A DNA stretch of 60,957 bases, the filler included, from Dugesia japonica (Eukaryota), in assembly GCA_001938525.1 (NCBI GenBank). It is 6 parts of 6 records of this genome, joined end to end, with 100 filler letters (N's around TTAATTAATTAA, not from the genome) between each part and the next. Parts side by side here need not be neighbours in the genome. Positions count along the whole stretch, not along the records: positions 23,057 to 33,094 come from MQRL01597800.1; positions 33,195 to 42,156 come from MQRL01534884.1; positions 42,257 to 51,292 come from MQRL01530911.1; positions 51,393 to 60,957 come from MQRL01505960.1; 2 more parts are not named here. One strand, given 5' to 3'. This document shows positions 23,057 to 60,319 of this stretch, in pieces; the stretch's first letter is position 1; each line of letters starts with the position of its first letter. Position numbers and translations under genes: made by a program. Under the pieces are notes generated by a model that was not told the origin of the DNA, made no database searches, and saw only the letters and a list, made by a program, of their open reading frames with translations.

Positions 23057-23308
23057 TTTTAACTGATGATGAATTATCTATAAGTAAAAATATAGTTAAT
23101 GAAGTTCATGAATTAATATCTGGACATAAACAAGAAAAAAATAAATCTCATTAAGAAAGTTAAAAAATGTTAGTAGAAAATCAAAGTTAAGTTATTAATG
23201 AAATGAAAATGAAATTAGGAATGTAATGACACATAAATTTGTATGTAAAATATTGGGTATGTAATTTTTGACACACATGCGTGCCTGATTAAATTATTTC
23301 TTTATAAA

Positions 23309-23989
23309 ATGGAAGATGTTATATGTAAAATTGAACAAGTTATACCTAAAATTAAAAATGGAGAAAAGTTAAAAAAAGAATTAAAAAATTTAATAATATC
23401 ACTTGATAATTTAATTAGTTCTGAATCTGAAAGTGAACAAATATGCGCTACGCTGGACTCCGTACAATTTAATGAAGAAGAATATATAGAAATGAAACAT
23501 GATCAAGATGGAACTGATAATGAAATAGAATCAATTGTATCAGAATCTAAATCTGTACAATCTGAACAATCTGAATCTGAATCTGAATCTGAACAAACTG
23601 AAACTAATCAAAATCAAATTGTTAGATTTAACATTCAAGATACTTCATCAGATAATTTAGTGATTATTAATAACCCTGATAATTTAACATTATTAAAAAG
23701 AAATACATTTAAAGAATTACCAGATTTAGAAGAATTTGATCCACCTAAATTTAATATAAAAATTAATCCAAAATCAACACGAACTATTCAGATGGAAAAT
23801 GGACAAATTAAAGATGTAGAAAATAAACAAATAGTTATTGGACAAATGATATTACCATTACCAATAGGTAAAAATGAAAAAGATACAATAAGAAGAACAA
23901 TAAAAGATGGAAAAAAAATAAGATCAAAATATTATCCAACAGATAATGAAGATGATGTTAAAATGGCAATAAATAAACCAACTATGTAA
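23309..23989 (+). CDS. Polinton hypothetical protein with acidic/Ser-rich centre, probably 3' truncated
   Basis: 226-aa ORF with an ATG start. It ends where the homology of the convergent ATPase breaks off. Confidence 0.6.
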   Translation: MEDVICKIEQVIPKIKNGEKLKKELKNLIISLDNLISSESESEQICATLDSVQFNEEEYIEMKHDQDGTDNEIESIVSESKSVQSEQSESESESEQTETNQNQIVRFNIQDTSSDNLVIINNPDNLTLLKRNTFKELPDLEEFDPPKFNIKINPKSTRTIQMENGQIKDVENKQIVIGQMILPLPIGKNEKDTIRRTIKDGKKIRSKYYPTDNEDDVKMAINKPTM

Positions 23990-24370
23990 TGTAACAATTA
24001 TACTTCTTGATTTTTTAGTAACTAAATTTTTATCTAGATAATAATTAATAACTTTATATGGTGAAGTATAAGTCTTAGGAATTATATTTTGTTTTTCAAA
24101 CATTAAAGTTATCTCTTCTTTAGTTAATCCATGTTCAAATCCTAAGTATAATAATTGAATTTCAAATTGTGAAATTGTTGTAGAGTAAATTATTAAATTG
24201 TCATAATCTAAAAATTNNNNNNNNAATAACATTTTCATTAATAATACATTTTTACCACAACCTGATGATCCAATCATTAAAAGTCTAAAATTATTAGGTA
24301 GTACTTTATTATTAAAATGTGTAATGTTATTATTCCAGATATACATGCTATTTTCTATATGTAACATATG
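23990..24370 (-). pseudogene. A32-like packaging ATPase, N-terminal half
   Basis: PNNFRLLMIGSSGCGKN (Walker A), highly similar to 53695-54080. The Walker B half is deleted. Confidence 0.85.
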
Positions 24371-24703
24371 GTAAATTATCATCATCATAATTATCATTTG
24401 AATAGTCTACATCTTTTGGCAAATTTATTAAAATAGGATAACCATCATTATCAAGTTCATATTTACATACTATTTATATTTTATATTTATTTATTATTTT
24501 ATTTATGCTAATTGGTAAATTATTATCTGATCTTGTTTTTAGTATACCAATTAATTTTCCTAAATTATTATAACATGTTAAATCAAAATGTTTAGTTTTA
24601 TTTATTACATAATCCCAATAATAAATTTTTTCTAAAATTTGTTTAGATGTTAAATCATCATTAATTATATCTTGTGCTATATCCATTTTATTAAGATTTA
24701 ATT

Positions 24704-24974
24704 TTAATCATACACTTTATATAAGGAGTTAATGTATTGTTCATTTTCTTTAACCATATTTTCATAAGAGGCATATGATAAATTTGGAATATAATTTTCT
24801 AATGATAACAAATTATTCTTTTCATCTATTAATCCTTCTAATTTCCATGTAAGAGAATTAATTTCTTCTTTTTTACCTTGATATTCACATTCTCCTATTT
24901 TTTGTTCTAATATTTCTATTTCTGTTTGAATTTCTAATATTTCTATTTCTATTTGATTTTTAAAATGAGACATT
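24704..24974 (-). CDS. Polinton hypothetical coiled-coil protein
   Basis: MSHFKNQIEIEILEIQTEIEILEQK..., directly downstream of the integrase (3' part of ORF 24704..25069). Confidence 0.45.
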
Positions 24975-25812
24975 TTATAAAGATGTTTTTTGTAACTCAT
25001 TACTATAAAATCTTCCCAATATTTTGTTGCCGTTAAGATTTGATATGCGAAATGTAATTGGTTGTTCATGATAAATTTGAGTAATTATATAAATTCTTTT
25101 AGACCATTTAAATGTATAACCTTTAGGAAATGTTTTACCAATTTTAGTTATTCTAACTCTATCACCAACATTAAATCTTAATTTCTCATTATAATCTTTA
25201 GGCATTACTATTTTAACTTTTTCTGGATTATTTGTTGCTTGTTGAGGTGTAATGTTAATTGTTGAATGTTGTGTGTTATTGTAATCATCAACAATTTGTT
25301 CTAATAACTTAAGTGTGATATCTTGATTTCCAACGGCAGTAAAATNNNNNNNNNNNNNNNNNNNNNNNNNNNNNNNNNNNNNNNNNNNNNNNNNNNNNNN
25401 NNNNNNNNNNNNNNNNNNNNNNNNNNNNNNNNNNNNNNNNNNNNNNNNNNNNNNNNNNNNNNNNNNNNNNNNNNNNNNNNNNNNNNNNNNNNNNNNNNNN
25501 NNNNNNNNNNNNNNNNNNNNNNNNNNNNNNNNNNNNNNNNNNNNNNNNNNNNNNNNNNNNNNNNNNNNNNNNNNNNNNNNNNNNNNNNNNNNNNNNNNNN
25601 NNNNNNNNNNNNNNNNNNNNNNNNNNNNNNNNNAATATTAAATCTGCAGACCAAATATCATCTTTTTCATGTACAACTATTTTTCTAAAATGTTTAGGTT
25701 TTCTATATTTTTTATGTAATTCTTTACTTAATATTTCTTTGTTGGTGAGTTCATCATCAGATTCATCTTTATTAATTGTAGTTTCTTTAAATAGATCTTT
25801 TTTTGTTCCCCC
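24975..25812 (-). pseudogene. Polinton integrase (core lies in the N gap)
   Basis: SKELHKKYRKPKHFRKIVV...DIWSADL, YNNTQHSTINITP, FNVGDRVRI...KGYTFKWS...GRFYSNEL. Confidence 0.88.
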
Positions 25813-26282
25813 TTAACCAATAACAATTTTACCTTTCATTGCTAATTTTACTAATACTCTTTGAAATTTTTCTGTTAATGTTGGATTTTCAATATTATTA
25901 AGATCATGTATTAAATTAACATCAGCAATATGACAATCGCGTATATTTTCAGAATTATACGCGATGTCATGTTTTAATGCAGATTCATCAACTCTATTAA
26001 TTGGTTCTTCAACAGGTTTAGGAATATTATTTTCATCTAATCTAATATCTAATCTTGTACCAGGTCCGGTGTAATTATGTTTAAATAAATGTCTTTCACC
26101 TGGATATTTTTCTGTTGTAATTGGTTTTAATAATGTTGATATAAATTTTGAATTTTGTAAGTCACCTCCAGATTTTTTCATTTTTTGTGCTACGCGATTA
26201 ATACATAAATCTAAATGTCTTGATTTATTTTTTTTAATATAATTTTACCACAATTGTCACATATAAAATTTTTAGAGGACAT
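25813..26282 (-). CDS. Parvovirus VP1u-like phospholipase A2 with an upstream C2HC zinc finger (1-nt frameshift)
   Basis: HNYTGPGT (Ca-binding loop), PINRVDESALKHDIAY (catalytic HD) and AD. The upstream frame reads MSSKNFICDNCGKIILK/KNKSRHLDLC. Confidence 0.85.
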
Positions 26283-26338
26283 TTTTAAGAGGTTACATTT
26301 ATCATTTAACATTTTACATTTTACATTTTACATTTATT

Positions 26339-27641
26339 TTATAAATCTTGACCTTTTACATTTTCAATCATAATAACTTTACTGTTAGCAAGTTTCATCT
26401 CAACATGTTTCTCTTCTAATATACACCAATGTATGATGGCTTTAAAATCATTATCTTTTGATATTTTAAGTGTAACACCTACATTGTTAACATTCATTTT
26501 ATTATCATGAGCAGATATATCAAAACAAAACATTGGATATAAATTACCAAAATCNNNNNNNNNNNNNNNNNNNNNNNNNNNNNNNNNNNNNNNNNNNNNN
26601 NNNNNNNNNNNNNNNNNNNNNNNNNNNNNNTGCCATTTCATTATTTTTCATATTAAATTTTAATTCATTAGCTGGATAATTAGTATTATTTAATTGTAAT
26701 TGTATACCTTTAATATAATTAGATTTTGATGTATCAACTGCGGGTGCGACAGCTTTAGTAATAATATCAACTTTCTGTATAAAGAGATTATCATTAGTTT
26801 CTAATGAAGAATTTGGAGATTTAAAACAAATAAAAATATATCTTGGTTGATAAGCTAAACTACCAATTTTTATTGAATAAAATGTTCCTATTTCCAAATT
26901 AGTTTTACCACATATCCTGTTTAAATATGAAACTTTAATTGATTTTTCCATTGATATTCTTTCCAACATTATTAATTCAGTTTTGGGTAATAATCTAAAT
27001 TCTGGAATATGAAATTCTAATGTTTCTAATATTAAATTAGCTTTTGAATCTTTTTCTCCATAAAATAATAATTTATTTTCAATTTCTCTGTTACATCAGA
27101 ATTCTATACTTGTATTATATAAAAGTCTATTATAATTTTGCATGAAACCACATAAATTTTTTAATGGAAAGTAACCTTCAAATTTATTAATTGTATAAAG
27201 TTTAGTTCTAGTTAAATAACCTTTATTTTTTACATCGCCATCATCAGTATCTGGTATCCAATCTGATAATTGGCCATTTTCCTTTTTATATGTGGCGGAT
27301 GTTAATATTAAATTTAACATTGTACTTATAACACCTGGATCGTTAATTGTTTCAATTTCAGATGAACCTAGAAATAATCTTAATGAATTAAATAAAATTG
27401 GGAAGAAATTATTTTCTAATGTTATTTTATCTTTTGTTGCATCTTTAATATTAATTTTAAAATATAAAAGTGAATTGCAAATGTCAAGTGGATTATTAGA
27501 TTGTAAAGATTGAAATACAATGTCGCCACTCGCATTTAATTTGCTTAATGTTCCTGCTGGTGGAGAAATTACCAATGTGTCATTTTTAATTGCAACATGT
27601 GAAAATTGAATGTTATTATTTAAATCTAACATTGTAATCAT
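26339..27641 (-). pseudogene. Polinton double-jelly-roll major capsid protein, frameshifted
   Basis: About 430 codons across three ORFs: LENNFFPILFNSLRLFLGSSEIETINDPGVISTML, PLKNLCGF, PRYIFICF, LNNTNYP, LYPMFCFDIS. Confidence 0.78.
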
Positions 27642-28098
27642 TTTATAGATGAAAAATTTAATGGTGTGTTTTTTTTATTATGTTACTATTATCTTACTAT
27701 TATTTTATGTTATGTTATCTTATGTTATNNNNNNNNNNNNNNNNNNNNNNNNNNATAAGATTTTTTCATATCCATTATTAAATTTTCATAATTAATAGGA
27801 ATTTTTTTATTTTCAACTCTATCCATAGGAATTTTTTGAATAACAGTGACTTTTTTATTTTGTTGGGGGGTCAGCTTAGCGCCTTCAAATCTATCAATTG
27901 CAGAAATAAAACTACCATTTGGATTTCTTTGTGTATTTCTAGATGGATTCCATGTTCTAACATTATATTCTATGTTCCATTTTGTTTAAATATTTTTTAA
28001 CAGTTTTCTCATTAATATTATAAATTTTACAAAAGTTATGTATAGAGTTATCTTTAAAATTATATTCATTTAACATTTTATAAAAAACTGTATCCATT

Positions 28099-28722
28099 TT
28101 ATTTAGTTTTTAATTTAGCATGTGCTCTATCTACTCCGGTGATTTCTTTTTGGGCTGGTATACGAGTAAATACATTAAATGAAAGCTTTTCTGTTTTTAA
28201 ATTTTCAACTAAAGTTTTATAACGTTTTGCAGTTAAATTTAATTTTTTATTTTTATCATCTGAATGAATTTTAATCTGAATATCATCAATTATTTTTGGT
28301 TTTAATACTTGATTAAATTGTGATAAAACCTTATTATGTTCATCTCTCTCTTTTTGCCATGCAATGCGCATTTCATTAATAGCTTTTAAATATGCAATTT
28401 TCTCATTATTTATTGATTCAATTAATAAATAACGACTTTCACTTTCTACACATTTTGAAATAATAAAAGTTATTATCACTTTAAATAAACTTTTATTATC
28501 TTCTTCTAAATTTAAATCATCTAATGTGGCATATATTTCATTAAGAATATCTAAATGATTTTTAGCAGTATCATGTGAAAGTTCATTATCTAAATATTCT
28601 TTTATTTCATTTAAATTTGACTCATCAAAAGTTTCAAATTTCTTTATTGAATTTACTAGTGTGCGTAAATTTAACTCACATAAAATTTTTTTCTCTGAAA
28701 CAACTTTTTTCTGATCACTCAT
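28099..28722 (-). CDS. Polinton hypothetical protein next to the terminus
   Basis: Intact 207-aa ORF with ATG start. No recognised motif. Confidence 0.6.
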   Translation of the reverse strand: MSDQKKVVSEKKILCELNLRTLVNSIKKFETFDESNLNEIKEYLDNELSHDTAKNHLDILNEIYATLDDLNLEEDNKSLFKVIITFIISKCVESESRYLLIESINNEKIAYLKAINEMRIAWQKERDEHNKVLSQFNQVLKPKIIDDIQIKIHSDDKNKKLNLTAKRYKTLVENLKTEKLSFNVFTRIPAQKEITGVDRAHAKLKTK

Positions 28723-28751
28723 TTTCTATAGAATTAATTTGAAACATATTA

Positions 28752-29075
28752 TTAAGTCACTTAGTGTATTTAAAATATTATAAAGTTACTTTGTGTATTT
28801 TATAAGTCACTTTGTGTATTTATTAAGTCACTTTGTGTATTTAAAAAGTCACTTCGTGTATTTAACATTTATTAAGTCACTTTGTGTATTTAACATTTTT
28901 TTNNNNNNNNNNNNNNNNNNNNNNNNNNNNNNNNNNNNNNNNNNNNNNNNNNTTTAAAAAGTCACTTCGTGTATTTAACATTTATTAAGTCACTTTGTGT
29001 ATTTAACATTTTTTTATTTAACATTTTTACATTTTTTATTTAACATTTTTCATTTAACTTTTAACATTTAACATA
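28752..29075. repeat. Polinton subterminal tandem repeats
   Basis: AAGTCACTT(T/C)GTGTATTT units, followed by TAACATTTT units. Confidence 0.75.
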
Positions 29076-30506
29076 TTAATTACGGTAGTATACCGGTTCT
29101 GGGTAAAAAGTAAATACCCTATTACTTATATATATATATATATCGTAATTAAATAATTAAATACTAACTAATATTTTATTTCAATGCGTCTTGACTCATT
29201 TAATTATGCTAAAATGTCACATGTAGATTTCAAAGTCTTCTTTACATTACATGTTACAATTATGTTTGTCATAGATAAATTATAATCTATTGGAAAACTA
29301 GGTTTCATGAATGCAATAAAGTTTAACATTTATTCTACTTCTGTGGTAGAAGATCTATTTTTTTCTGTTTATTAGCTTTCATCTAGATCTATATTAATTT
29401 AAATAATTTATTATCCTATACATTAACTCAAAAATAAATTCATGTAAATATATTGTTACATTGAGGCTAAATAATAATCTACTTATTAATTTCTTTCACT
29501 GTCTTGTCTTAGTCTTTTTAAGATATTTAATTTGATTTAGTTTAATTTAACTTAAGGTTTAATTTACTTGACTTTGATGGTTGTATTTATTTGTTAAGAA
29601 ATTTTTGTTGATCCTTGTAGACTCTCCTGAAACAGTTTTGGGACAGCTGAGGTGAATATTGTATTAAGATTTTGTCTTTCGAGTATATAGGTGGGAAATT
29701 AATTTTGTACTATTATCCACTGATTATTATGAAAATGTAATCGTAAATTAATTAAATCGTCTTACACCAAAATATATAAATATAATTAAAATGGATAACA
29801 ACCAAACCAAATTAGCAAAAAGAATTTATTACTTGTATTAGCAAGAAGAACGCAATCCTCATCAAATAATTATTTAAGACAAAGTTTCTATAAATTGAAA
29901 AACTGAGTTAGAAAAGTTTTAATATTCAAACAAATATACGCAATAATTATTTTAATTATTTTCTTGAAATATTTTAAATATCAAAAACTTTATAAATATT
30001 TTAATTGCGCATATTAATTTGAAATTAAGCAATTCGAATATCATTCTCACAACTTGTATCTTAAAAAGTCACGGATTGAAGTAAAAGATAAATTTAGTTG
30101 TCATAATTTAGAACAGTCAATGTAGTGATTCGTAGGAGAAGTTCTATAAAGTTCATAATACAATGCACAAAACTGGAGTTTAGAATTTTTGGAAATGGTT
30201 TGGTTTGGTTAGCCTTTTAATTCTAACTTTTTTTGATAATTTATTTTTGGTTTAAGCCAATTAATTTTTTGGTTTCTAATATTTCGTATTTTCTTTTATA
30301 ATTTTAAATATTAATTTCTGAGATTTTTATTTTGTATTTATCGCTCTTTTGCATATTAAAAATGTAATATCTAATAATTATGATACATACTTACACAAGC
30401 ATGTATTTACATAATGTACAAACATTATTCTTTAAAAGAAATTACAATTTTGATACTTGAAAATTATAAAATGAGCACCTTTATAATCAGAAAAACATTA
30501 CAGTAA

Positions 30507-30575: not shown

Positions 30576-31387
30576 CTCAAATGCAATCAATGGTCAAGTC
30601 CAACAATTATTCTCACAATAATTGTAATTATATTACAGTAAATATTCTATATATATTGAAAGTGTAAAATTATCTAAGACTGCTGTTTAAAGCAAACAAC
30701 TTGCTAAATTTAAATCCATTTTGGATATTTCTGATTTTAATATTTAAAATACAATAAAAGATTATTCAAACTATACTTTAACTGATGATGAATTTAATCT
30801 CTTAAAACTTGGTCCATCACATTGTATTAAATATAAATTAGATGGATTTTATTTTAAGGCTCAATTTGAATCGGTATATTCTAAATTTCTCCTTTCATAG
30901 AGTTCAAATAAACTGGATTTGCTGAATAATAAGTTTAATATTCAATCATCTGTTACTAAATTTATTAACAAGAATAAACCTTTTAATTTTAAGGATGAAA
31001 AAGTATTAAAGCAATCAAAATAGAAAGATTTGAGCATTTGAAAATTTAATAAAGTTAATGGACTAATTATCATGAACAAGAATGATTATAACAGTAAAAT
31101 GATGATGATATTGCAAACAAGTAAATGTGAACGATTAAACTTAAGAAAGAATAGCGTACCACTACCAATCAATATGAAAATCGATTATTAAAAATTCTAA
31201 ATAAATTTTAAAAAAAGAGATCATATAAATAGTTTATGTGACTATATGTTATGCTATGGAAGTCAGTCTGCTAAATTTTATGGTCTACCAAAAATACACA
31301 AACCTGATATCCCTGTAAGACCGGTTTTATCAATGATAAACACAGCGCAATACAAAGTTGCTAAAGTACTTAACAAAATGCTGAAAC

Positions 31388-31747
31388 CATAGTTGTACAA
31401 CATGAGGCCCGTAAACATTTTTTTGGCAGGCGAGATTCATCACACTTTTTCAAAATGTTTATTTCGATATATATTTTCAATAATATAATATTTTTTATAT
31501 TTAAATTTTAGTGTTATATATTTTTTTACAATGTGCNNNNNNNNNNNNNNNNNNNNNNNNNNNNNNNNNNNNNNNNNNNNNNNNNNNNNNNNNNNNNNNN
31601 NNNNNNNNNNNNNNNNNNNNNNNNNNNNNNNNNNNNNNNNNNNNNNNNNNNNNNNNNNNNNNNNNNNNNNNNNNNNNNNNNNNNNNNNNNNNNNNNNNNN
31701 NNNNNNNNNNNNNNNNNNNNNNNNNNNNNNNNNNNNNNNNNNNNNNN
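31388..31747 (+). mobile_element. Short hAT-like insertion inside the Penelope RT
   Basis: Starts CATAGTTGTACAACATGAGGCCCG. Flanked by 8-bp GCTGAAAC/GCTTAAAC, and removing it restores NKMLKPLIC. Right end hidden in Ns. Confidence 0.65.
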
Positions 31748-32843
31748 GCTTAAACCATTAATATGCAATGATAAATAATGTAAAGATACTTTTGGATTTG
31801 TAAATTGCTTTAAAAAACTACTTACCTCAAATAAGGAAATTATGGTTTATTTTAATAAAGTTAGTCTGTTCACAAACATTCTTATAAATTAGATCATCGA
31901 TACCTGTGTTGATCTCTGGCGAATCAATACACGAATTTATACTATAAATTTGATGAAATAGCTATCAGGAAATTGTTGGCATTTTTAATAATGATTGGTT
32001 CTCTCAGAAAGATCGTGTTGCAATGGGTTCTGAGTTGGTACGAACATTAGCATCCTTATATTCGTCTAAAATTGAATCACGAATTACTAACTTTTCTGGT
32101 AATCACCCGATAGAATACAAAAGATACGTATATGATATCTTCCTTATTTTTAAAGATCAAGAGAATATACTACCTGTCTCGATTATATGAACAGTCTTCA
32201 TCAAAATATAACATTTACTATAGAAGTTGAAAAAAACGATAAACCATCATTCTTAGATATTCTTGTTTGTTAACATGGTCTTAGCTATAATACTGCAATA
32301 TATAAAAACCAACAGACACAAGACTATACACCACTTCTAAAGATTTTTGTAATGATCGATATAAAAATGGGTTAATAAAAGGTTTAGTTCATAGAGTGCG
32401 GGGTATGTTATCAAGTTTTGAGATTGCTGATGATGTCTTAGCAGATTAGATAGTAGTCTTTGAGCTGATGAATATTACCATAAACGAATTATAATAACAT
32501 ACGTAGTATTTTAAACAGACTGTGCTCAACATTAAATAATAACCAAGAAGTTATTAACAATAATCAAGAAAAATAACTATAAAACTACAATTCTCGAAAG
32601 GAGCTAAATCATTAAAATGTTCTCTCATGTAATATTTTGATGATAATAAAGCTAAAATAAGATTCGATGAGTTTACAGTTTTGAACAGCGGTTTTGATAA
32701 TTATTTTGAAAGTATTGTTTGTCATGCTTTAAGAATTTGGTGAAACTCAGATTTAAATTTATTTTAATCTTTTTTTATTGGATTGAGTACGTAACAGGTT
32801 TTATTAGTTAGTAGATAAACACTTTTCTTCTTATTTTACAACA

Positions 32844-32884: not shown

Positions 32885-32928
32885 AAAATAAAAATTTCAA
32901 AAAATATATAGATTAATTTTATATTATA

Positions 32929-34823: not shown

Positions 34824-34881
<58 letters not shown>

Positions 34882-34892: not shown

Positions 34893-35795
34893 GATTACTA
34901 TCTAAATTATCGAAGAAAATGGCAATTTTTTATTAAAACTTTGAAACGCAATTTATATATTTTTTTCTTTATAACATAATCCGACAGAATATCTGTCATC
35001 TTGTTTATTGAAACAATATTTATTCCTTTTTAAATTTTTTCATTGTTTCTAAAAAATGCTTATATATAAAATATTTTTGATTATTTAAACAATTATGCAA
35101 TCTCTGCAATAAATCAAATTAATTAAAAACATTCAATGAAGATTTAAATTTTATGATCGGATTTCAAATTTTTATATTAAACTGCTGAGAGTTTGAAGCA
35201 GGTCGTTTTTAGTTTTTCCAATATTTTACAAAGAATTTTTCAAAAAACATCTTTATTCTCAAAAACGATCATCAAAGTATCTATTCGATAGAGAATTTTG
35301 AGCTGATATCAAATATCATCACGTAAAATCACGAGAATTTTTACATATATCGTTAAATCACAAGAAAATGTAGTTAACTTTGGCTCCTATCACAAGGAAA
35401 ATTAAAAAACTAACAATTAAAGCAAAATTTTACACATATATTAAAGCTACTAATTTCAAACTAACATTCATTCAATATTCATTCTTTTTAAGATTTTGTA
35501 CTTTTTATCTTCTTTTCAATTATAATGTTTAGTACATCATAACAGCAATAGTAACAATCGCATTTGTTAGGTGTGAGATGATTACAAAATCATCTCTCAG
35601 TGCTCGTATAAATTAATTTGGTGTTTGATTGTATGTATGCATGTAAGGTATGTTGATTTATTTGTTTTAGTCCCGTATTATTATATCAGAGATTTCTCTA
35701 AGACTACTGGCTTCTAAAACAATAAATATAGAAGCCGATTATGTCATATTGTCAAAAAATATATTTTAGAAACTCTAATTAGACTTCTTTATAAC

Positions 35796-42156: not shown

Positions 42157-42256
42157 NNNNNNNNNNNNNNNNNNNNNNNNNNNNNNNNNNNNNNNNNNNN
42201 TTAATTAATTAANNNNNNNNNNNNNNNNNNNNNNNNNNNNNNNNNNNNNNNNNNNN
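42157..42256. other. Artificial scaffold spacer
   Basis: N44-TTAATTAATTAA-N44. Confidence 0.95.
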
Positions 42257-47337: not shown

Positions 47338-47495
47338 TGTTGGGGCGAAACACCCGGAGGAATGAAAATCAAGGTTGAAGGGGGTCATGACTGGCCAATA
47401 TCAACTTAGGAAACATGGTAAGAAAAGCAAGTGTGAAAAAGCCAGACAATAGTATTAAATGGGAACTCAGAAGATCAAATTCAATATGATTAATT
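47338..47495 (+). mobile_element. LTR 5' fragment of the 1-790 family, followed by a second TG-starting LTR-like sequence at 47496
   Basis: Close reverse-complement match to 630-790. Homology stops where TGTTGGGTATAATAAC begins. Confidence 0.65.
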
Positions 47496-50187: not shown

Positions 50188-51292
50188 CTATATGATACTA
50201 TAGTGACCATATGGGACACTTTTATTTTTGTCTACCCATANNNNNNNNNNNNNNNNNNNNNNNNNNNNNNNNNNNNNNNNNNNNNNNNNNNNNNNNNNNN
50301 NNNNNNNNGATGTTATTCTAAATTGCTCTACTGAGACCGATTTTTTCTCATTATAACAGTCAAGGTAAGACTGATGAGAAATTTCTGTGTTCTTCAATGT
50401 TATACTTTTGAATCTCATGCTGTTCTTTTCTCCGAGCAGGCTATAGCATTTCAGTCTCAAAAATATCCATTCTTGATACTTATTCCCTTTATTCTCATCT
50501 TTAGATTTCTCTATAACTGAGTTTCTGCTGTTACTATAAATGGTATGATCTTTATCATAATTTGAAGTATCAAGTGGCTTATCTCTCATCATACTTGCTG
50601 TTATTTTTTCTAATTTAGTATTTTCTATTTCTAGAAAAAGACTATCTGTATCACCGGCTACAATATTAATTTTACATTTAAATTCCTTTCTCTACTTTTC
50701 CTACTCAATGTACTGAAGTTTGTACATTCTCAATTTTGAGAGGTCAANNNNNNNNNNNNNNNNNNNNNNNNNNNNNNNNNNNNNNNNNNNNNNNNNNNNN
50801 NNNNNNNNNNNNNNNNNNNNNNNNNNNNNNNNNNNNNNNNNNNNNNNNNNNNNNNNNNNNNNNNNNNNNNNNNNNNNNNTACATAAGCGCAGATTGATTC
50901 TGTTCTTAAGATTCTCCACTGATTTTCCATATAAACTGTTATTTAACAGTTTAAAATAATTTCTTTCCGATTCTTAATACAATTTGATCTGAGAATTGTG
51001 TTGGTATTGATATAATTCTCGAAAATTGAAGCCTGGCTGAATTTAACTCCTCGATGAACCTCTATTACTTTAACTCCTAAATTTAAATACATTTGCAGCA
51101 ATCTCCAGTGCATTACGTAATTGTTCTTGGAGTAGTACGTTAACATTAATTTCTTCACTTTACAATCTGGAGTGCTTCTATGTTCTGCTGCAACCGACAA
51201 ATCATTTAAATAATCATGAATTTCGGCAGGAATCATCATGTCAACCTCTAGAGTGTATCTATATGACAATGAATCTAGATCTGCATTCTTAC
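50188..51292 (-). pseudogene. Polinton pPolB C-terminal half (fragment C)
   Basis: TLEVD...IHDYLND, KKLML...YVMHWRLLQMYL, LNNSLYGKSVEN, LDLSK..MY, GDTDSLF, DTSNY, SVPYGHY. Confidence 0.9.
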
Positions 51293-51392: not shown

Positions 51393-51571
51393 TGTGTGCA
51401 AAATAATTCCAATTAAAAATTGCATAATAAATTTAATTGAGGGATTAAATTACCGATGATGTAATTCCATCATAGATTAACGATCAAATTTCAGATAATT
51501 GCACTAATTACATCACTAATCGGTGGGGGGGTTCGCACACAGGTGGTTACATGCGCTACTATCTATCTACT
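51393..51571 (-). mobile_element. Putative Polinton-type terminus abutting the fragment D integrase
   Basis: Reverse complement begins AGTAGATAGATAGTAGCGCA, followed by a C-rich tract. Confidence 0.5.
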
Positions 51572-51572
51572 A

Positions 51573-52452
51573 ATATTAATTGGAAAAGGAATATTATCAA
51601 AACCTAAAAAAGCACGAAATTTCATCAGAAGAACTTCATAAAGAATATAGAAGACCAAAACATTTCTTAAAAGTAATAGTAGATGGTAAAGATAATATTT
51701 GGTCAGCAGATTTAATTTTCCACAAAAAATTTATATGTTTAAGTGTAATTGATTTATATACAAGATTTGCATTCGTAGAAATTGTTAAAGATAAAAAAGG
51801 ATTATCAATAAGAAATGCATTTGAAAGAATTCTAGAAAAAAGTTTTAGGATGCCAGGTAAATTATGGATAGTTAATGGTAGAGAATTTTATAATAAAACA
51901 TTTCAATCTTTTTGTGAAGATAATAATATTAAATTATATTCTAATGAAAATCAAGGTAAAGCAGTTGTGGTTGAAAGATTTAATAGAATATTTAAAAATA
52001 AACTCTTTAAACATTTTACTGCCGTTGGGAATCAAAATATTAATGAAGCTTTAATACAAGAAATTGTAGATGATTACTTTGATACTACTTACTATGATAC
52101 TACTTTGAAAGTTAATTATTCATAAATTATGATTGCAAATATTAATTACAGAGGTAAAGTTGATCAAGAANNNNNNNNNNNNNNNNNNNNNNNNNNNNNN
52201 NNNNNNNNNNNNNNNNNNNNTAAAAAAGAAATACCAATTACTTTTCCTGAGAAACAAAAATTTAAAATTGGAGATAGAGTTAGAATCTTTAAGTTTAAAT
52301 ATAAATTTGAAAAAGGTTTTACAGCTAAATAGACAGAAGAAATATTTATAGTTATAAGAATTTATGATACGAAACCAATAACATATGGAATATCAGATTT
52401 AAATGATGAAAGAATTCTTGGAAGATTTTATTCAAATAAGTTAAAAATCTAA
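51573..52452 (+). pseudogene. Polinton integrase
   Basis: EELHK, IWSADL, LSVIDLYTRFAF, GREFYN, KAVVVERFNR, FKIGDRVRI, GRFY. Confidence 0.92.
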
Positions 52453-52495
52453 AATGTAAAATATAAAGCCTTATGATTAAAATTAAAATATTAAA

Positions 52496-53507
52496 ATGGA
52501 AAGTCTTCTAGAACATTTATCTGATCTTATTATGGATTTATATACAATTGATATTACAAGAGATGAAGACTTTTATACAAATTTTAGAACAAATTTAATA
52601 ATGGCTAAAGAAGCGATAGAATATAAATAAGAATTTAAAAATTGTCCAGATTTTGTTTTTGAGGATATTCAAAAAGAAAAAGAAAAAATAAAAAGTAGTA
52701 AAGTTAAACCAAAAACTAAAAGTGAAATTGATAAAGAAATTGAAAAACTAAAACAAGAAATGAAACAACCAAAAATATTTAATGAACCACCACAAATATT
52801 AAGTGAAGATGAAATATTAAACCCAAAGGGACCCATAGAACCACCACAAATATTAAGTGAAAGTTCTGAAAGTGAAGATGAAATAATTCCTAAGAAAATA
52901 TTAAGCCCAAAGGGACCCATAAAATCAGAATCTGAAATATTAAATGAAATAAATCGAAATATAAATGATTTAAGTAAGAATGAAAACTAAAAATAAAAGA
53001 AGGTAAAATTAAAAGAGAAAAAATAATCCCACCACAAACATTTGAAATGGAACTTTATTCTTCATTAGATGATAATAAAAAAATGTTATTATTTTATCTA
53101 AAAGAATTCACACTAGAAAATCATCAAGATTTTAATTTTTGTTTTATAAAACAAAATCGTGGAAATTTAATAACATTTATGAAAAGTTATATGTTATATA
53201 TACTTTTTTTACATGTGTAAAAAAAGCAAAAGAAATAACTTTAATTTCATATTCACAAATGGGAAGAGTTTTAAAACATTTGAAACATGATTTTAACCCT
53301 AATGGTAAAAAATTAAAAGCTGATGATTTTTTAAATTATTTAAGTGGATATGAAATTCATTTTGATATGAGTTACATTAACAAATTAATTAGATTTTCTA
53401 ACATAGTTGATAAGTGGCCTGAAATTGTTACAAGTAATTTTTCATTTTATAAAATCACATCATATTTTAAAGAAATTGAAGAAATAGCTATTAAACGAGA
53501 TTTGTAA
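52496..53507 (+). pseudogene. Polinton hypothetical gene(s) with EPPQILSE / PKGPI duplications
   Basis: Broken ORFs (52496 onward, 52760-52990, 53139-53507) between the integrase and the ATPase. Confidence 0.45.
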
Positions 53508-53694
53508 AAATCAAAAGTGTAAAGATGTAAAATGTTAAAAATAATTTGCAAGACATGCATGCCTCGGAAAAAATGTTAAGTGTAAAATATAAAATTTGCC
53601 GCTCACGCATGAGTAGGAAAATGTTAAGTGTAAAGCTAGAAAAGCATGCATGCCTTTGTAAAGATGTAAAGATGTAAAATTTAACATATAAAAA

Positions 53695-54471
53695 ATGGCA
53701 TCATACAAAGGCAACGGCTCAACTTCGTACATCTGGAATAAAAATATAACAACTTTAAATAATAAAGTATTACCAAATAATTTTAGACTTTTAATGATAG
53801 GATTTTCAGGTTGTCGGGAAAATGTTTTATTAATGAAAATGTTATTAACACCTGAATTTTTAGATTATGATATTTTAATTTTTTATTCAACAACAGTTAA
53901 TCAATTTGAAATTCAATAACTTTATATTGGTTTTGAAAATGGTTTAAATAAAAAAGAAATTATTTTAATGTTTGAAAATCAAAATATAGTTCCAAATAAT
54001 TGCATTACACCTTATCAAGTTTTATCATTCTTTTTGGATAAAAAATTAGTTATTAAAAAACCTAGAAGTATAATTGTAACATGAAGTAATAAACCTAATG
54101 AAATAATTTCATGTGACAGACTTTCAAAAGAAAAGAAAAACTTAATAATATTTGATGATGCTGTTAATGAAAAGAATCAAGAAATACAAAAAAGTTATTT
54201 CACTAGAGGTCGACATTCAAACTGTTATGTGATTTATATTTCCCAAACATATTATCATTTAAATAAAAATTCTATACGTAACAATTCAAATTGTTACATC
54301 TTTTTTAAATTAAATAAAACAGATAGAGATAATGTTTATCATGAATTATTTTCTAATATTTTTCCTAACAAGTTAGAATATGATTATGAGGTTAATCTTC
54401 ATTGGAAAACTAAATATAATTATTTTTATGTAAACAAGGAAACTGATGAAATGTTAGATGATCTATTCTAA
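53695..54471 (+). pseudogene. A32-like packaging ATPase
   Basis: Decayed Walker A (GFSGCRE), Walker B LIIFDD, YFTRGRHSN, IYISQTYY, SIRNNSN. Confidence 0.9.
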
Positions 54472-54559
54472 TGCTTTATGCGTCCCCTTGGTCTAGATTT
54501 TACATTCCTAATTTCGATTTTATTTCATTAAAAATCCTTGTTTGATTTTCTAACATTTT

Positions 54560-55108
54560 TAAACTAAAACTATTTTCCTTATGTTTAGCTTCGCTTTCTT
54601 TTCTATTACTAGATATTAATTCATGAACTTCATTTACCATATTTTTACTTTATAATAATTCATCATCAGTTAATATTTCATCATTGACAGCTTTTTGTTG
54701 AAATAGAACTAATTTATTTTTAACAGCCTCAAGTTTCTTAATTAACTTTTCATATCTTTCTTTTCTTGATTTTATTAATGATGAATTTAATGTTCCAATA
54801 ACTGGCCACACTGAAATTGCACCTGTCAATATTGGTATACCAATTGTAGATAATGGTATTCCAATTGGTGCAATTAAAATTATACCACCAATTCCAATTC
54901 CAGCACTAACAATTATTTGTGTATATTTTATTGTTGAATCTATCCTTTCCCACCTTATATGTATTTTTTTATAATGTTTTATTTTATCTTTTATAAAGTA
55001 AAGATCATTTTCAAAATCTTTTATTCTAGATAATGCAAGTTTATTTTTTAAATCTAAAATCGTGAAAATTTCTCCATAGTCTAAATTAGGATATATTTTA
55101 TCTTCCAT
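54560..55108 (-). pseudogene. Polinton membrane/coiled-coil protein
   Basis: MEDKIYPNL..., central hydrophobic Gly-rich segment. Its tail is homologous to 23057-23228. Confidence 0.6.
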
Positions 55109-55110
55109 TT

Positions 55111-56297
55111 TTATAATGGATAATTTGGTGATTTTTCAAAATCATTTCTTCCAAAAGATATTTGATGAATAGAAATATATTTTGGTAAAATTATTTTAAT
55201 AGATTTTATATTCTTATCTTTAATAATTCTAGTGCTTACTACTTTAATATCAATTAAATCACCAGCTATAAGACATAAAAATGTTACTGGAATATTATTA
55301 TTATTAATGATGTAATTAAATCTTTTAATTTTAGAATAACCTAGAATCCGTAAATAAATTTTATAATTAATATTTACTGATAAATTAATAGTAAATGGTT
55401 CATCGAGACGATAATAAAAGTTATTTCTAATACTTATCATTTCAGCTTTTCTTATAAAATCTATATCTAAAAGTTGAAATATTTCAGATGAATAACAAAA
55501 CCATGGTAAATCACCATCTTTAGCAGAAATTAAAAATACTACATTATCATTTAAAGTAATATTATTAAAAGGTAAATAATTATCAAATAAGTGTATTAAA
55601 CTTTTATCTTCATTTTTCTTAATAAAATATTAAATTTATCAAGATAAAGTTTGTGGAGTTTTGGTTTTATTGTTTCAAATTCTTGAGTGGAAAATTCTAT
55701 AGTTATATTCTTTAAATAAATTTCTTGCAGTAAAATTATGTTAATAAAGTTTATATTATCATCTTTATTAATGTCACTGCTTTCTCTAAAAATTTTTATA
55801 TTCTTATCTTCAGGTTTAACATATAAAAATGATACTGCAAAATGATTAATTCTGATAATGTAATTAAATTTTTCAATTTCACAATAACCTGATATATTTA
55901 TTCTAACGTTTCTTTTAATATTTGTATGTAAAGAAATATTAAAAGGTTCAACAAGATAAAAATTTTCATTTTACCATTTCTTATAAAATCTAAATTATAT
56001 ACATATTTATCCATAATAATATATTGTGGAAGATTATCATGAGAGATAATTGAAAATATTGTTTTATCACCAGGTATAAAAACATAAGGTAAGTAATTAT
56101 CAAATAAGTGTCTTAAACTTTTAACTGTTGATCTTTTCTTCTTTGTTATTATAAATAAATCTATTATTTAAATTATTAATGTTAAAAATAATATTATAAC
56201 ATGTAAAGCATATCAACCCCAGTTCATATTCTAAATCTAATTCTATAGGAAATTTGTAATCTTGTTCATGTCCGACTATTACAAATTGATGTGACAT
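55111..56297 (-). pseudogene. Minor capsid (penton)-like gene with two tandem internal domains
   Basis: ATG at 56297 gives MSHQFVIVGHEQDYKFPIELDLEYELGLICFTCYNYFFNINNLNNRFIY. The module KSL.HLFDNYLP...LDFIR...EPF.I.L...GY occurs twice. Confidence 0.55.
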
Positions 56298-56319
56298 CTT
56301 TGCTATTTCTTATGAGAAA

Positions 56320-57170
56320 TATTTAGTTTTATATTTTTTATAAATCATGTCAGATATTAAACCCATCATCTTTAATTTTTTTAGAAACACTCTTAATTTC
56401 TTCATCTAAATTATTATGTCCAGATTTTACTGCTGAAATTAATAATGTTAACTCTTCAAATAAATTAATTGGATTCATTTCTAAGCCTTTTCCTTGTTTA
56501 TTGTAAGCTTAAGGTAAACTTTGTGATCTACCAGGTGTTAATATTGATTTTAAATAAAGAAAATATTCTCTATTTGATTCGGAATGTTTTATTATATCAT
56601 TAAACTATAAATCAATAAATTTTTTAGTTTTAGCATCATTTTCAATTTTGTTTACATTTCCTAATATTATATCTTTTATTTCATATGAATAATCATAAAT
56701 TATTTTATTAATTGAAAAATATGTTTTCTTATCAATGCTAAATAAATATATAATCACATTAGTTTGTTTAAACTGTATTATTAGAAATATTTTATTTTCA
56801 ATTACTTCTTTTTCACTTATTCTGGGAGTTAATTTTTCTTTTATTAATTGTTTATCAATTAGCATATTAATAGAATGATATGGTTTTACATTATCACTTT
56901 CTAACAGTTCATTAAATTCATCATCTTCATAAGTTACCCCTAATATAACTTTTTCGTATCCTTTTTTACTTTCTGTTTAATTTCTTCTGGTTTAATTTCT
57001 TCTTGTATAACATCTTCTTCTATTAATGTTTCATCTTTAAAAAGTAATGGTTTATTATTTCCTATTGCTGAAATTGTTGGCTTTTGTAAAATAGATAATT
57101 CACTTTGTAAGTTTCTTGAATCAATAACATTTCCACAGAAAAAATCATTATATTTCTTTTGACCTTTAAT
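56320..57170 (-). pseudogene. Conserved Polinton hypothetical protein
   Basis: C-terminal KQGKGLEMNPINLFEELTLLISAVKSGHNN resembles the Polinton G.G...P..L..RL.LL.....AGN motif. Confidence 0.55.
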
Positions 57171-57351
57171 TAANNNNNNNNNNNNNNNNNNNNNNNNNNN
57201 NNNNNNNNNNNNNNNNNNNNNNNNNNNNNNNNNNNNNNNNNNNNNNNNNNNNNNNNNNNNNNNNNNNNNNNNNNNNNNNNNNNNNNNNNNNNNNNNNNNN
57301 NNNNNNNNNNNNNNNNNNNNNNNNNNNNNNNNNNNNNNNNNNNNNNNNNNN

Positions 57352-57713
57352 AAATATTTATGTATTGCTGAACTTTGATAAGGTGTTAAATAAATCCCAG
57401 TACCTTTATGGGGTTTATCAATTAGTTCAATTTCTTTTTGTGCTTTGATTGCTCGTCTTGAATTTGTAACTGTACTTGCAATTCCAGATGCAATTCAAGC
57501 GGTTCCAGCTAAAGCACCGATAATTGCTGGTATTGCAGCTAAAAATAAAAATTCACCATCTTTTAATTTCTTGTCTTTAAGCTCATCTTTCACTTTTTTA
57601 CTGATATAATTATTTTTACCATTAATCTTTACTGATTTACATTTCTTTGAATTTATTATTTTCTCTAATTCTTCTTCTGTTACACTTGTTGTACTTGTTG
57701 GATTATTTGTCAT
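57352..57713 (-). pseudogene. Adenovirus pX-like small core/membrane-active protein
   Basis: KDGEFLFLAAIPAIIGALAGTA*IASGIAS resembles GGFLPALIPIIAAAIG. Later HKGTGIYLTPY. Confidence 0.6.
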
Positions 57714-57741
57714 ATTTTATAAGAAAAATATACATGGTAAA

Positions 57742-59593
57742 TTATTTCTTGGTAATTAAAACTTTATTTATTTTATTTAACAATGAATGATAATAGTTAC
57801 AATTTTCATAAGAAAATCTAAAATAATGACCCCATGTTATTTCTCCTTCATCTTCAATTAATCGTTTATCATCAAATCCTGTACAGGCAATTTTTGTTTG
57901 TTGTTTAATTTTTAAATCATGTAAGAATGAATTTATTGAATAATTAGTTCCAAGAACTATTTCATTTGGATTATATAAAAATTTTTCAAAATCATTTATA
58001 AGAAATGAATTAAAAGATTGAACACCTTTATGTTTCTTTATTAATTCAATTAGTCCTTTTTTATTATATTCAAAATCATATGATTTTGCTCTTATACAAA
58101 TTAATTTTAATATTTCATCATTAGTCAATTCATCTTTCATTTGAAATAATTCATCTCCTAATATTAATTTTAACTTTTCTAAATTATCTCTTTTTAAATA
58201 TTTCTACAAATACTCTATCAGTATCTGAATAATGTATTTTATAATTATTTTGTCCAACTGTTGGCTGTTATTGATTATATACAAAATCATACATTACTTG
58301 TTTTGCATGTTCAAGAATTGTGAATCCAATATATTGAAACTTATCATATTTTAAATTAGTTTGTTCTAAATGCATTGCTGCTAATTTAGCATTATTATTA
58401 TCATCTTTTGTGAAAACTTTACATCCTAAATATGTTAGTTTACTTGCAAACTTTTGAATGTCTTCATCTGTTCCTACAATTTCAACATTACATCTATTCC
58501 TAATATTTTCAAGTGTTTTACCATAAAATGAATTGTTTAATAATTTTAAAAAAAATCTCCAAATTCATCTTTATTTCTTTTAGCTATTCTTCTTTGATCA
58601 ATATTATATACGAAAGGTATATAATCTTTTAACCATGGAGATGTTGGCATTTTATATTTATTATGAGTTTTTTTATTTTCAATCCAAGATTTAAATATAA
58701 ATCTAGTGTAGAACCTAAACATAAATAATTTTCTTTATCACCAAAATTTAATGTTACTTTAACATTTTTCTTTGGTAATTTTCTATTAAATGAAAATGGT
58801 CCTTTTTGATATATTCCTAACATATCTTCTGTAATATTTATTTTATCTGGCGCTAATGGAAAATATCTTGTTCTTTCATGTATTTCAGGTGGATATTCTA
58901 AATCAACTTCATAAAGATAATTCATGCTATCAGTTGCTTTTTCATAATTTAAATTTTCATCAATAATAAATTCGCCTGTTGGTAAAGGCCTTAAATTTGA
59001 TTTCTTGCATACGAATTAAATGTTGCTATTTTTTCTTCACCATTTATCATTTTATTATATTCACCATAAGCTGTTATTTCTAATTTATGTTGTCCTTTTA
59101 AATTATAAAACTTTCTTATTATTTTTGTAATCTCACTTTCATAACCTAAAATTAATTTTATTTCATCTTCTGAAATATCTTTTCTCATTATTAATATTCT
59201 ATCTTGGCATTTAACAATTTCATAATTTGGATGACTGTCTTCTCTACATAAATCTTTTATAATTTGTACTGGTGTTGGTTTAGGAATTGGAGTTAGTAAT
59301 CTTTTAATTCTTTCTCTATGAGCTTTACTATTTAAATGTAATCTTGCACCAACTGCACTGTTATATCTTTTATTGCAAATTTCACAATAGTTAGTTGTTA
59401 AATTTGTCGTCCCACATTTTGTTGAATAAATATGTCTTTTTAAACCTATTGCAGTTTCAAATTTATTTTTACATTTATTACATTCATAACGTTTTATTTT
59501 TGGTCTTGAATATGTTTTTGATGTAAGATGGCTTTTTAAACCTCTTTCATTTTTAAATGTTCTATTGCAATTGTTACATTTTAAAATGACCAT
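57742..59593 (-). pseudogene. pPolB with three N-terminal zinc fingers; exonuclease and motif A deleted
   Basis: 59593-58991 encodes three C2H2/C2HC-like fingers. Immediately after come LPTGEF, YEVDLEYPPEIH, LNNSFYGKTLEN, IGFTILE, YSDTD and FDDKR. Confidence 0.85.
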
Positions 59594-59714
59594 TTTAACT
59601 ACCTTTTATTTAATCACAATTTATTATTTATAAAAAACCACAGCCAAATCTTATTCTTTTAAATCGCAAAGCCATATTTTTTACTCGATGTGTTCTTTCG
59701 GTTATTTTTACATC

Positions 59715-59862
59715 AAACATTTGACATGTCACATTTTTCGTCAAACATTTTTCACCCGATATTTTTCGTGTCACATTTTTCGTCAAACCTTTTTCGTGTC
59801 ACATTTTTCACCTGAAATTTTTCCTGTCACATTTTTCGTGTCGCATTTTTTCGTCAAACATA
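59715..59862. repeat. Polinton subterminal tandem repeats
   Basis: TGTCACATTTTTCG / TCAAACATTTTTC units. Confidence 0.75.
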
Positions 59863-60319
59863 TAGTACCTTGCTTCATTCATTATGACCTAAGTAAACCC
59901 ATGTAAATGAAATATGTCAATATGTCAAATAATACATCGAACATATGACATGATACAGCTACTACCTTGCTTCATTCGGTTGTTATTCCATTATTAAGAC
60001 TAAAAAATTGCTAAAATAAAATAAGAAGAAGATAAAAGAAAGGTGAATAAATATTAATGTTCAAGAAAATAATATAAATTAAATTAAAGCTCAAAACCCA
60101 TAGCAATAAAAGTCAGAAATAAAAGGGTTTAAATTAAATAATAATTGATCGAAATGAAGAATTGAACGAAATTTTTAAATGAAAAAGAACATATATTATT
60201 ATTTACAATTTTTATAATTGTTATACGAGTAGAGATATAAAGAAATAATTATTGTAATATAATAAAATAATTAAGTTAAGAAAGTATAGTTAAAATAAAA
60301 GTATTTTTATTAAAATTTT

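What the first reader, a model, noticed from the sequence alone, without database searches (positions are those of the whole stretch)
23057..59990. Fragments B and D are complementary halves of one capsid-encoding Polinton family
Seen: B (23057-29080) and D (51572-59990) share a closely similar ATPase, integrase and LTDDEL..VNEVHELIS gene, in opposite orientation. Inference: overlapping them gives terminus > ORF207 > MCP > ZnF-PLA2-INT > variable ORFs > ATPase, converging with (226-aa ORF) < membrane protein < penton-like < conserved ORF < pX-like < pPolB < terminus. This is a nearly complete endogenous virus with two convergent arms. The ORFs between integrase and ATPase differ between copies, suggesting a variable cassette. 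No cysteine protease gene was seen, although GG and GxG sites are present.
Basis: partly seen in the sequence, partly recalled or inferred. Interest (0 to 1): 0.72.

Follow-up and report, generated by a model that had tools for sequence, protein, structure and literature searches.

The report
Two decayed Maverick virus-transposon copies
Two broken pieces of a well-known kind of virus-like jumping DNA (a Maverick/Polinton) lie on two separate assembly scaffolds; they are related but different dead copies, not two halves of one nearly complete virus.

Summary
B and D are real Maverick/Polinton relics, and most gene labels hold: capsid, PLA2, integrase, A32 ATPase, pX-like, pPolB. But the window is six scaffold pieces joined by linkers, and B starts at a scaffold edge, so distance and 'opposite orientation' mean nothing. 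Shared genes are 69-82% identical in DNA. The ATPases are sisters (99/90); the integrase C-termini are not. These are two subfamilies of one lineage. 'Nearly complete' fails. D's polymerase lacks about 830 residues of a relative's, a junction that genomic runs of three studies confirm. D's penton stops after about 55 residues, B's ATPase lacks its C-half, ORF226 is absent from D, and no shared terminal repeat or protease was found. A relative (L002) carries an adenain-like candidate, so loss is likelier than a protease-free design. Read depth shows a very large family with conserved core genes and variable accessory slots. The composite gene order is plausible but unproven, and relatives differ. 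Convergent arms, PLA2 and missing proteases are already in print. The one noteworthy feature is a zinc-finger-PLA2-integrase reading frame, intact in a relative and not found in my literature searches.

The parts
22957..23056 (.). Scaffold linker (N44-TTAATTAATTAA-N44); B's left end is an assembly edge
23059..23226 (+). B: C-terminal tail of the two-helix membrane-protein gene (the LTDDEL..VNEVHELIS stretch), with stops
   Evidence: 81% nt to D 54500-54673; frames
23309..23989 (+). B: ORF226, acidic low-complexity accessory ORF; its stop coincides with the end of ATPase similarity, so it is probably cut by the same deletion (inference)
   Evidence: no Pfam hit; no match in D or in 15 related loci; junction
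23993..24343 (-). B: A32-type packaging ATPase, N-half only (Walker A present, Walker B half missing)
24477..25069 (-). B: two small ORFs (77 and 121 aa) in the variable slot
   Evidence: no family, no match in D or in the related loci
24978..25812 (-). B: rve integrase with linker; catalytic core hidden under an N gap (25346-25633); no chromodomain after the C-terminus
25816..26275 (-). B: zinc finger (frameshifted) plus parvovirus-type PLA2 domain, in frame with the integrase and separated from it by one stop
   Evidence: PF08398 E 2.8e-8; frames; 50% to the intact 472-aa ORF of L005 over 204 columns
26342..27641 (-). B: double-jelly-roll major capsid protein; one in-frame stop (27096-27098) and an N gap (26555-26630)
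27755..28097 (-).
28102..28722 (-). B: ORF207, intact, unknown
   Evidence: no Pfam hit at cutoff; best Atlas score 0.76
28749..29080 (.). B: 21/28-nt and 7-nt tandem repeats; probable terminal region
51393..51571 (.). End of a very abundant repeat that abuts D's integrase; D is cut here by an insertion plus a scaffold edge (inference)
   Evidence: depth 179,000-264,000 in the first bin, and joints from 51571/51572 to other places, in three DNA runs
51572..52449 (+). D: integrase, starting with a few codons that resemble the PLA2 tail; frameshifts, one stop, second catalytic acidic position altered
   Evidence: PF00665 E 5.8e-8
52496..53507 (+). D: variable slot, one or two broken ORFs; the last 110 aa match an accessory ORF of L002
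   Evidence: E 2.6e-7; low depth
53695..54471 (+). D: full-length ATPase gene with two stops and a degenerate Walker A
54500..55108 (-). D: conserved two-helix membrane-protein gene, frameshift near 54651
   Evidence: Atlas clusters at 0.91-0.93, no Pfam, one mostly Preplasmiviricota
55114..56140 (-). D: tandem pair (68% nt) of beta-rich ORFans; low-confidence jelly-roll/CBM-like sandwich
56124..56309 (-). D: penton (minor capsid protein), N-terminal ~55 aa only
   Evidence: hhalign probability 94.8, E 5e-8, 52 columns
56353..57173 (-). D: conserved Polinton ORF with stops (PZ-like; label recalled)
   Evidence: E 4.7e-5 to the L005 homolog
57354..57713 (-). D: pX-like core protein with one stop; no PLA2 domain attached
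   Evidence: E 7.7e-9 to an L005 ORF that hits Adeno_PX (E 9e-4, under the cutoff)
57745..59593 (-). D: protein-primed PolB relic: N-terminal zinc fingers joined near 58990-59000 directly to the region after motif A; frameshifts
   Evidence: junction spanned in three DNA runs
59706..59993 (.). D: 14-nt tandem repeats; probable terminal region
   Evidence: a 559-nt record ends at 59993

Best explanation
B and D are two independently inserted, now dead copies from two subfamilies of one very abundant group-2-type Maverick/Polinton lineage in an AT-rich eukaryote genome (an animal by inference; host not determined). Shown: the gene content, the breaks and the large family. Inferred from established Polinton biology: the active ancestor copied itself with pPolB, integrated with the rve integrase, and could package its DNA with the ATPase into a double-jelly-roll capsid with penton and pX-like core protein. 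It made the integrase as a zinc-finger-PLA2-integrase protein, probably cut at a Gly-x-Gly site by an adenain-type protease that these two fragments have lost or that lies in unassembled parts. After insertion each copy decayed on its own by stops, frameshifts, internal deletions (D polymerase and penton; B ATPase) and insertion of another repeat (D left end). The shared order INT > variable slot > ATPase >< membrane gene is probably ancestral to both. The full composite order is a reasonable guess (about 55%) but was not observed.
For: Linkers and scaffold edges. Identities 69-82% nt. ATPase sisters 99/90, next relative 59% or less. Same integrase clade 97/95. Mixed TAA, TAG and TGA stops plus frameshifts. 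D's polymerase pieces match only residues 1027-1410 of the 1414-aa L002 enzyme, and the exonuclease and motif A patterns are absent in all three frames while motifs B and C are present. The deletion junction is spanned by records with 4, 0 and 0 other letters in runs of three studies (table 8). About 21,000-22,000 contigs per run lay on D, mostly at 80-95% identity, with depth peaking on core genes and falling 100- to 1000-fold on accessory slots. Loose ends at 54650 in two runs read like B's first bases and carry on a few bases as in D (compared by eye). Relatives hold MCP > ZnF-PLA2-INT (L003), an intact ZnF-PLA2-INT ORF (L005) and an adenain-like candidate next to penton and MCP (L002). 96% of vertebrate Maverick loci are degraded (PMC8097293).
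Against: No full-length copy was seen, so subfamily structure and gene order rest on fragments. The integrase tree uses 67 columns and has 12 open branches; decay could inflate the B-D distance. No terminal inverted repeat or target-site duplication was found. The summed depth is not a copy number, by the tool's own warning, and one of the three DNA runs may be the source of the assembly. The L002 protease is supported only by motifs and sub-threshold Pfam hits (Peptidase_C5 E 0.047), with no PDB hit. The group-2 assignment was not tested with a tree.
Confidence: 0.8

Rival explanations
1. B and D are complementary halves of one family whose full element has exactly the composite order proposed and is nearly complete.
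For: Same order and relative orientation of INT, ATPase and membrane gene. ATPase sisters. D begins with a few codons resembling the PLA2 tail; a loose pattern for that tail is found in 29 of 46 integrase homologs with enough upstream sequence, no shuffle control. L003 has MCP > ZnF-PLA2-INT. Convergent arms are the rule in vertebrate Mavericks (PMC8097293).
Against: 69% nt in the integrase C-half; D is closer to L004 (67% aa) than to B (50%) there. ORF226 is only in B. Ends are unrelated: 35 and 18 of 200 shuffles score as high. Polymerase, penton and protease are missing or cut. Clade relatives L002, L005 and L016 have three other orders. One contig in one run joins the pX start to the ATPase start (57682 to 53761, side 34; weak).
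Confidence: 0.3
2. B and D are mosaics: ATPase and membrane gene come from one subfamily, while integrase and outer arms were exchanged by recombination between co-resident Maverick subfamilies.
For: Uneven identity (82% and 81% against 69%), discordant trees, different accessory ORFs on both sides of the ATPase. Module exchange is reported for adintoviruses (PMC8502044).
Against: A short alignment and unequal decay can give the same pattern; the integrase N part is still mutual best hit (71% aa).
Confidence: 0.25
3. The lineage is a protease-free virus with a shortened polymerase and compact duplicated pentons, so the gaps are design, not decay.
For: No protease in 14.4 kb of B and D. The tandem ORFs fold, at low confidence, as jelly-roll-like sandwiches next to the penton start; top hit is an archaeal virus turret/penton chain, Z 7.7, rmsd 3.4, 109 aligned. 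Duplicate and insert-less pentons occur in adintoviruses (PMC11071296).
Against: The polymerase lacks motif A, so it cannot be active (established knowledge). The N-terminal side of the junction has near single-copy depth (16-117) while the C-half is at 600-30,000, so the deletion belongs to few copies. Relative L002 has a protease candidate. Protease is identifiable in only 74% of Polintons (PMC4028283). Model pLDDT 49; Z under 8 is generic; no profile match to pentons (probability 0.2).
Confidence: 0.07

Closest known systems
Maverick/Polinton elements, group 2 type (Krupovic et al. 2014, PMC4028283; Barreat and Katzourakis 2021, PMC8097293)
   Same: pPolB, rve integrase, A32 ATPase, double-jelly-roll MCP, penton start, conserved accessory ORFs; two convergent modules as in vertebrate Mavericks; mostly degraded copies. 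A phospholipase domain is described as common in group 2 (bioRxiv 10.64898/2026.06.19.733378, passages).
   Different: The ATPase lies on the integrase/MCP arm and the penton on the pPolB arm, the reverse of the vertebrate modules; no protease, TIR or TSD found in these fragments.
Alpha adintoviruses (Starrett et al. 2021, PMC8502044; Buck et al. 2024, PMC11071296)
   Same: Animal-type endogenous elements with hexon, penton, FtsK-like ATPase, integrase, PLA2 and pX-like domain; duplicated or insert-less pentons are reported.
   Different: PLA2 is in frame with the integrase, not joined to pX (PLA2X); the integrase has no C-terminal chromodomain; OTU and adenain are not seen.
Unnamed metagenomic relatives L002, L003, L005, L016 and proteins P0093-P0108, P0110-P0116
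   Same: MCP 42-56%, ATPase up to 59%; ZnF-PLA2-INT in L003 and L005; an accessory domain shared with L002.
   Different: Other gene orders; intact ORFs; L002 has a protease candidate and a 1414-aa polymerase; L016 has an ATPase fused to the PZ-like ORF.

Membership tests
Maverick/Polinton | [quoted passage not shown] | tested here: met
   D pieces match the L002 pPolB (E 1.4e-22), which hits PF03175 (E 1.2e-10); internally deleted relic
Maverick/Polinton | rve (retroviral-like) integrase | tested here: met
   PF00665 E 5.8e-8, above cutoff; 91 homologs
Maverick/Polinton | A32/FtsK-like packaging ATPase | tested here: met
   PF04665 E 3.3e-6; 74 homologs
Maverick/Polinton | Double-jelly-roll major capsid protein | tested here: met
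   PF21738 E 2e-12; in B only
Maverick/Polinton | Single-jelly-roll minor capsid protein | tested here: met
   N-terminal 52 columns, probability 94.8; the rest not found; in D only
Maverick/Polinton | Adenovirus-like cysteine protease | tested here: inconclusive
   No match with the L002 candidate or with motifs, but both copies are cut and deleted; seen in 74% of Polintons
Maverick/Polinton | [quoted passage not shown] | tested here: inconclusive
   Each copy has only one end; the B and D ends are no more alike than shuffles; no (AGT)2/(ACT)2 end identified
Alpha adintovirus (strict definition) | PolB with N-terminal OTU-like domain | tested here: inconclusive
   The region falls in D's deletion
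Alpha adintovirus (strict definition) | Integrase with C-terminal chromodomain | tested here: not met
   B's integrase ORF ends without it and no PF00385 hit was found in B or D pieces; L005 likewise
Alpha adintovirus (strict definition) | PLA2 joined to a pX-like domain (PLA2X) | tested here: not met
   PLA2 precedes the integrase in B; D's pX-like ORF has no PLA2
Alpha adintovirus (strict definition) | Hexon reciprocally recognisable with the reference adintovirus hexons | not tested
   Reference sequences were not fetched

The most novel reading that the evidence does not exclude
This host carries an exceptionally amplified Maverick lineage whose integrase is made as a zinc-finger-PLA2-integrase polyprotein. 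The membrane-breaching entry enzyme and the integrase would then be packed into the virion together and split at a Gly-x-Gly site, much as retroviruses package integrase. A tandem pair of compact jelly-roll or sugar-binding-like domains would serve as variable vertex proteins. Some copies may still be intact. The fused frame is well supported in relatives (L005 intact; 5 of 91 integrase homologs carry both Pfam families); co-packaging, cleavage and absence from print are not shown.
Probability: 0.3. Interest if true: 0.5.

Novelty: new member of a known kind. Interest (0 to 1): 0.25.

Why it matters
As it stands this is ordinary paleovirology: dead Maverick copies are the rule in animal genomes. 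It would matter more if the family proves as abundant as the depth suggests and still has intact members. Maverick virions have not been observed according to PMC8097293, and a PLA2-integrase polyprotein gives a concrete prediction (integrase inside the particle, processed by the viral protease) that bears on whether these elements spread as viruses.

Tried and rejected
No whole genome is held for this window, so full-length copies could not be sought. IMG/VR scans with MCP, integrase and an MCP alignment gave one irrelevant 18-residue hit and two blanks. A PDB sequence search with MCP and with the L002 protease candidate found nothing. The only hit for the tandem ORF among 1.84 billion representatives was a repetitive protein judged spurious. 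Foldseek against viral models gave nothing at E <= 0.001; the VIA-align list is generic beta-sandwiches. Profile comparison of the tandem ORFs with three pentons was negative. ORF207 has no Atlas match at 0.9; ORF226 was tested only against Pfam, the window and 15 loci. TIR test between the B and D ends and the 51393-51571 repeat was negative. No RNA holder was listed. In one RNA run, 368 of 13.6 million reads lay on D, 2 of them at 99% or more, and 98% ran on unlike; this says nothing either way on expression. Stop-codon reassignment was considered and rejected because all three stop types and frameshifts occur. Mis-assembly of the polymerase junction was rejected. The motif scan of D read one frame three times by a script error and was redone. 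Trees left rows out: 32 of 34 hits for the integrase; 38 homologs (the best of 49 that passed, of 74) plus B and D for the ATPase. Only D, not B, was laid on reads, and only 24 of about 6,600 loose ends were shown, so continuation of D-type copies into PLA2 and MCP is untested. A PLA2-integrase fusion was not found in searches or in the passages read. The Starrett supplement was searched only as cut text; bioRxiv supplements, figures, subscription papers and Repbase were not seen and may describe it. Papers on planarian Polintons were consulted on a guess from base composition; the host was not determined. Earlier scan notes held nothing on this genome or its look-alikes.
Full report
1. Layout of the window. 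Five identical linkers (N44-TTAATTAATTAA-N44 at 14239, 22957, 33095, 42157 and 51293) split the window into six pieces. B starts at 23057, the first base after a linker. D lies in the last piece, 180 bases from its start. The 22 kb between them and their relative orientation therefore carry no information. No genome is held. Runs that hold D all carry one organism label, and the same label has oligo-dT RNA runs; a eukaryote, probably an animal, is inferred, and the host was not determined.

2. The observation. B and D share three stretches: ATPase N-half, 286 of 347 nt and 82 of 112 aa; integrase, 82 of 107 nt in the N part and 243 of 352 nt in the C-half; and the LTDDEL stretch, 134 of 165 nt. 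The last is the tail of D's membrane-protein gene, past a frameshift near 54651. Pfam confirms PLA2, rve, A32 ATPase and C2H2 fingers. The capsid gene, read with X at its single stop, hits PF21738 at E 2e-12 and 16 proteins of 297-434 aa at 42-56%. The pX-like, PZ-like (label recalled) and penton assignments rest on homologs in metagenomic loci.

3. What is broken. D's polymerase spans 1,849 nt. Its pieces match residues 1027-1410 of the 1414-aa enzyme of relative L002, plus a 200-aa zinc-finger N-terminus. About 830 residues of L002's enzyme have no counterpart; L002 may have its own insertions, so the true loss may differ. Exonuclease and motif A patterns are absent, motifs B and C present. 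Records with 4, 0 and 0 other letters span the junction in runs from three studies, so it is genomic; one run may be the assembly's source. The penton match covers 52 columns and is followed by a 68%-identical tandem pair of ORFans. B's ATPase similarity stops at about 23989, exactly at the stop of the opposite-strand ORF226, which suggests one deletion cut both; D has no ORF226. D's ATPase has two stops and a degenerate Walker A; at least one stop is private to D among laid copies (table 3). All three stop types and frameshifts occur, which is decay, not recoding.

4. Are they one family? In a 40-row ATPase tree B and D are sisters at 99/90, and the closest outside protein is 59% identical over D's whole ATPase. 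In a 32-row tree of the integrase C-terminus both fall in one 11-row clade (97/95) but form a pair in 1% of bootstrap trees, and D is closer to L004 (67%) than to B (50%). The alignment is short (67 columns). Their terminal regions carry different tandem repeats and are no more alike than shuffles (35 and 18 of 200 as high). The reading is one lineage with two subfamilies or mosaics.

5. The family in the host. About 21,000-22,000 contigs per DNA run lay on D at 80% or more, most of them at 80-95%. In run X1 summed depth is 38,000-49,000 on the integrase, 31-303 on the slot after it, 44,000-74,000 on the ATPase, 37,000-39,000 on the membrane gene, 380-6,800 on the tandem ORFs, 43,000 on the PZ tail and penton start, and 30-117 on the polymerase N-terminus and terminus; D's own records have depth 5-10. 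The tool warns that this is no copy number, but the gene-by-gene pattern repeats in all three runs. The first bin (51393-51711) reaches 179,000-264,000 with joints from 51571/51572 to other places, so D's left end abuts an abundant repeat; D may continue on another scaffold. D's first codons resemble the PLA2 tail seen in B and in fused homologs (weak, six residues). Loose ends at 54650 in two runs read like B's first bases and go on a few bases as in D.

6. Gene order in relatives (15 loci). L003: MCP > ZnF-PLA2-INT, as in B. L005: ZnF-PLA2-INT converging on MCP, with pX > ATPase > PZ-like > penton on the other strand. L016: ATPase-PZ fusion > penton > pX > MCP. L002: pPolB, accessory ORF, protease candidate, ZnF, penton, then MCP on the other strand. 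Order is fluid in this clade, so the composite cannot be taken from two fragments. The L002 protease candidate has His, Asp and Gln/Cys motifs and weak C39/C5 hits; it finds nothing in the window.

7. How it most likely works. See Best explanation. Shown here: gene content, breaks, family size pattern and an intact 472-aa ZnF-PLA2-INT ORF in L005 (zf-U1, PF08398, PF00665), with 5 of 91 integrase homologs carrying both families. In B the two domains share a frame across one stop, and the PLA2 calcium-loop and His-Asp motifs are present. Inferred: replication, integration, packaging, cleavage at Gly-x-Gly and entry by PLA2, by analogy with parvoviruses as proposed in PMC4642659 (passages).

8. 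Comparison with the literature. PMC8097293 (first part and passages): convergent two-module layout, 96% of loci degraded. PMC4028283 (first part): protease in 74% of 72 Polintons. PMC8502044 (parts 1-3 of 6 and a cut supplement): PLA2X typical of Alpha virion modules, module exchange. PMC11071296 (passages): integrase chromodomain, missing, duplicated and insert-less pentons. bioRxiv 10.64898/2026.06.19.733378 (passages): phospholipase common in group 2. PMC5803895, PMC3671162, PMC4061559, PMC10748475, PMC6431247 and PMC8532177 were seen as passages only. I file the elements as Mavericks/Polintons, not as adintoviruses in the strict sense, because chromodomain and PLA2X were tested and not met. 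The PLA2-integrase fusion was not found in searches; unseen supplements, figures and Repbase may hold it. Scan note e1-7352434 pointed me to PMC11071296, and e1-7142348 prompted the recoding check.

9. Verdict. Observation partly confirmed; interpretation partly supported; new member of a known kind; interest 0.25.

Noticed in passing
window 8439-14238: A third Maverick relic of another type: integrase (-) 8439-9215, ATPase pieces (-) about 9850-10393, and pPolB (+) 11056-14197 with PF03175 hits, in divergent orientation and cut by the scaffold end.
   Followed up: partly
window 50191-51290: A fourth piece: the C-half of a pPolB (-) of the same broad type as D's, starting at a scaffold edge.
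   Followed up: partly
window 51393-51571: End of a very abundant repeat (depth about 2x10^5; also hit by RNA reads) that reads AGTAGA.. inward on the minus strand, like a Maverick-type terminus; no second copy in the window. It could be a non-autonomous element inserted into D.
   Followed up: partly
window 55114-56140: Tandem ORFans with a low-confidence jelly-roll/CBM-like fold directly after the penton start; could be compact duplicated pentons or sugar-binding vertex proteins.
   Followed up: partly
window 30650-32600: Decayed reverse-transcriptase relic resembling Penelope-like elements (label recalled; no Pfam hit).
   Followed up: no
window 5358-6426 and 36559-38392: LTR-retrotransposon relics (Integrase_H2C2; zinc knuckle and RVT_1); 35572-35797 repeats at 38927-39144 (88%), possibly LTRs.
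   Followed up: no
window 7477-7947: Protein kinase fragment, probably a host exon (PF00069, E 1.3e-18).
   Followed up: no
window 1700-2074: ORF resembling a hAT-type transposase fragment (label recalled; not confirmed by Pfam).
   Followed up: no
window 14339-15431, 28840-29015, 47685-48022: Near-identical direct duplications flanking 50-N gaps (450 nt at 97%; 63 nt and 74 nt at 100%), probably assembly overlaps.
   Followed up: no
L016 1560-3143; L005 4565-5188: L016 encodes the ATPase fused to the PZ-like ORF; L005 has an unrelated 208-aa ORF between MCP and integrase.
   Followed up: no
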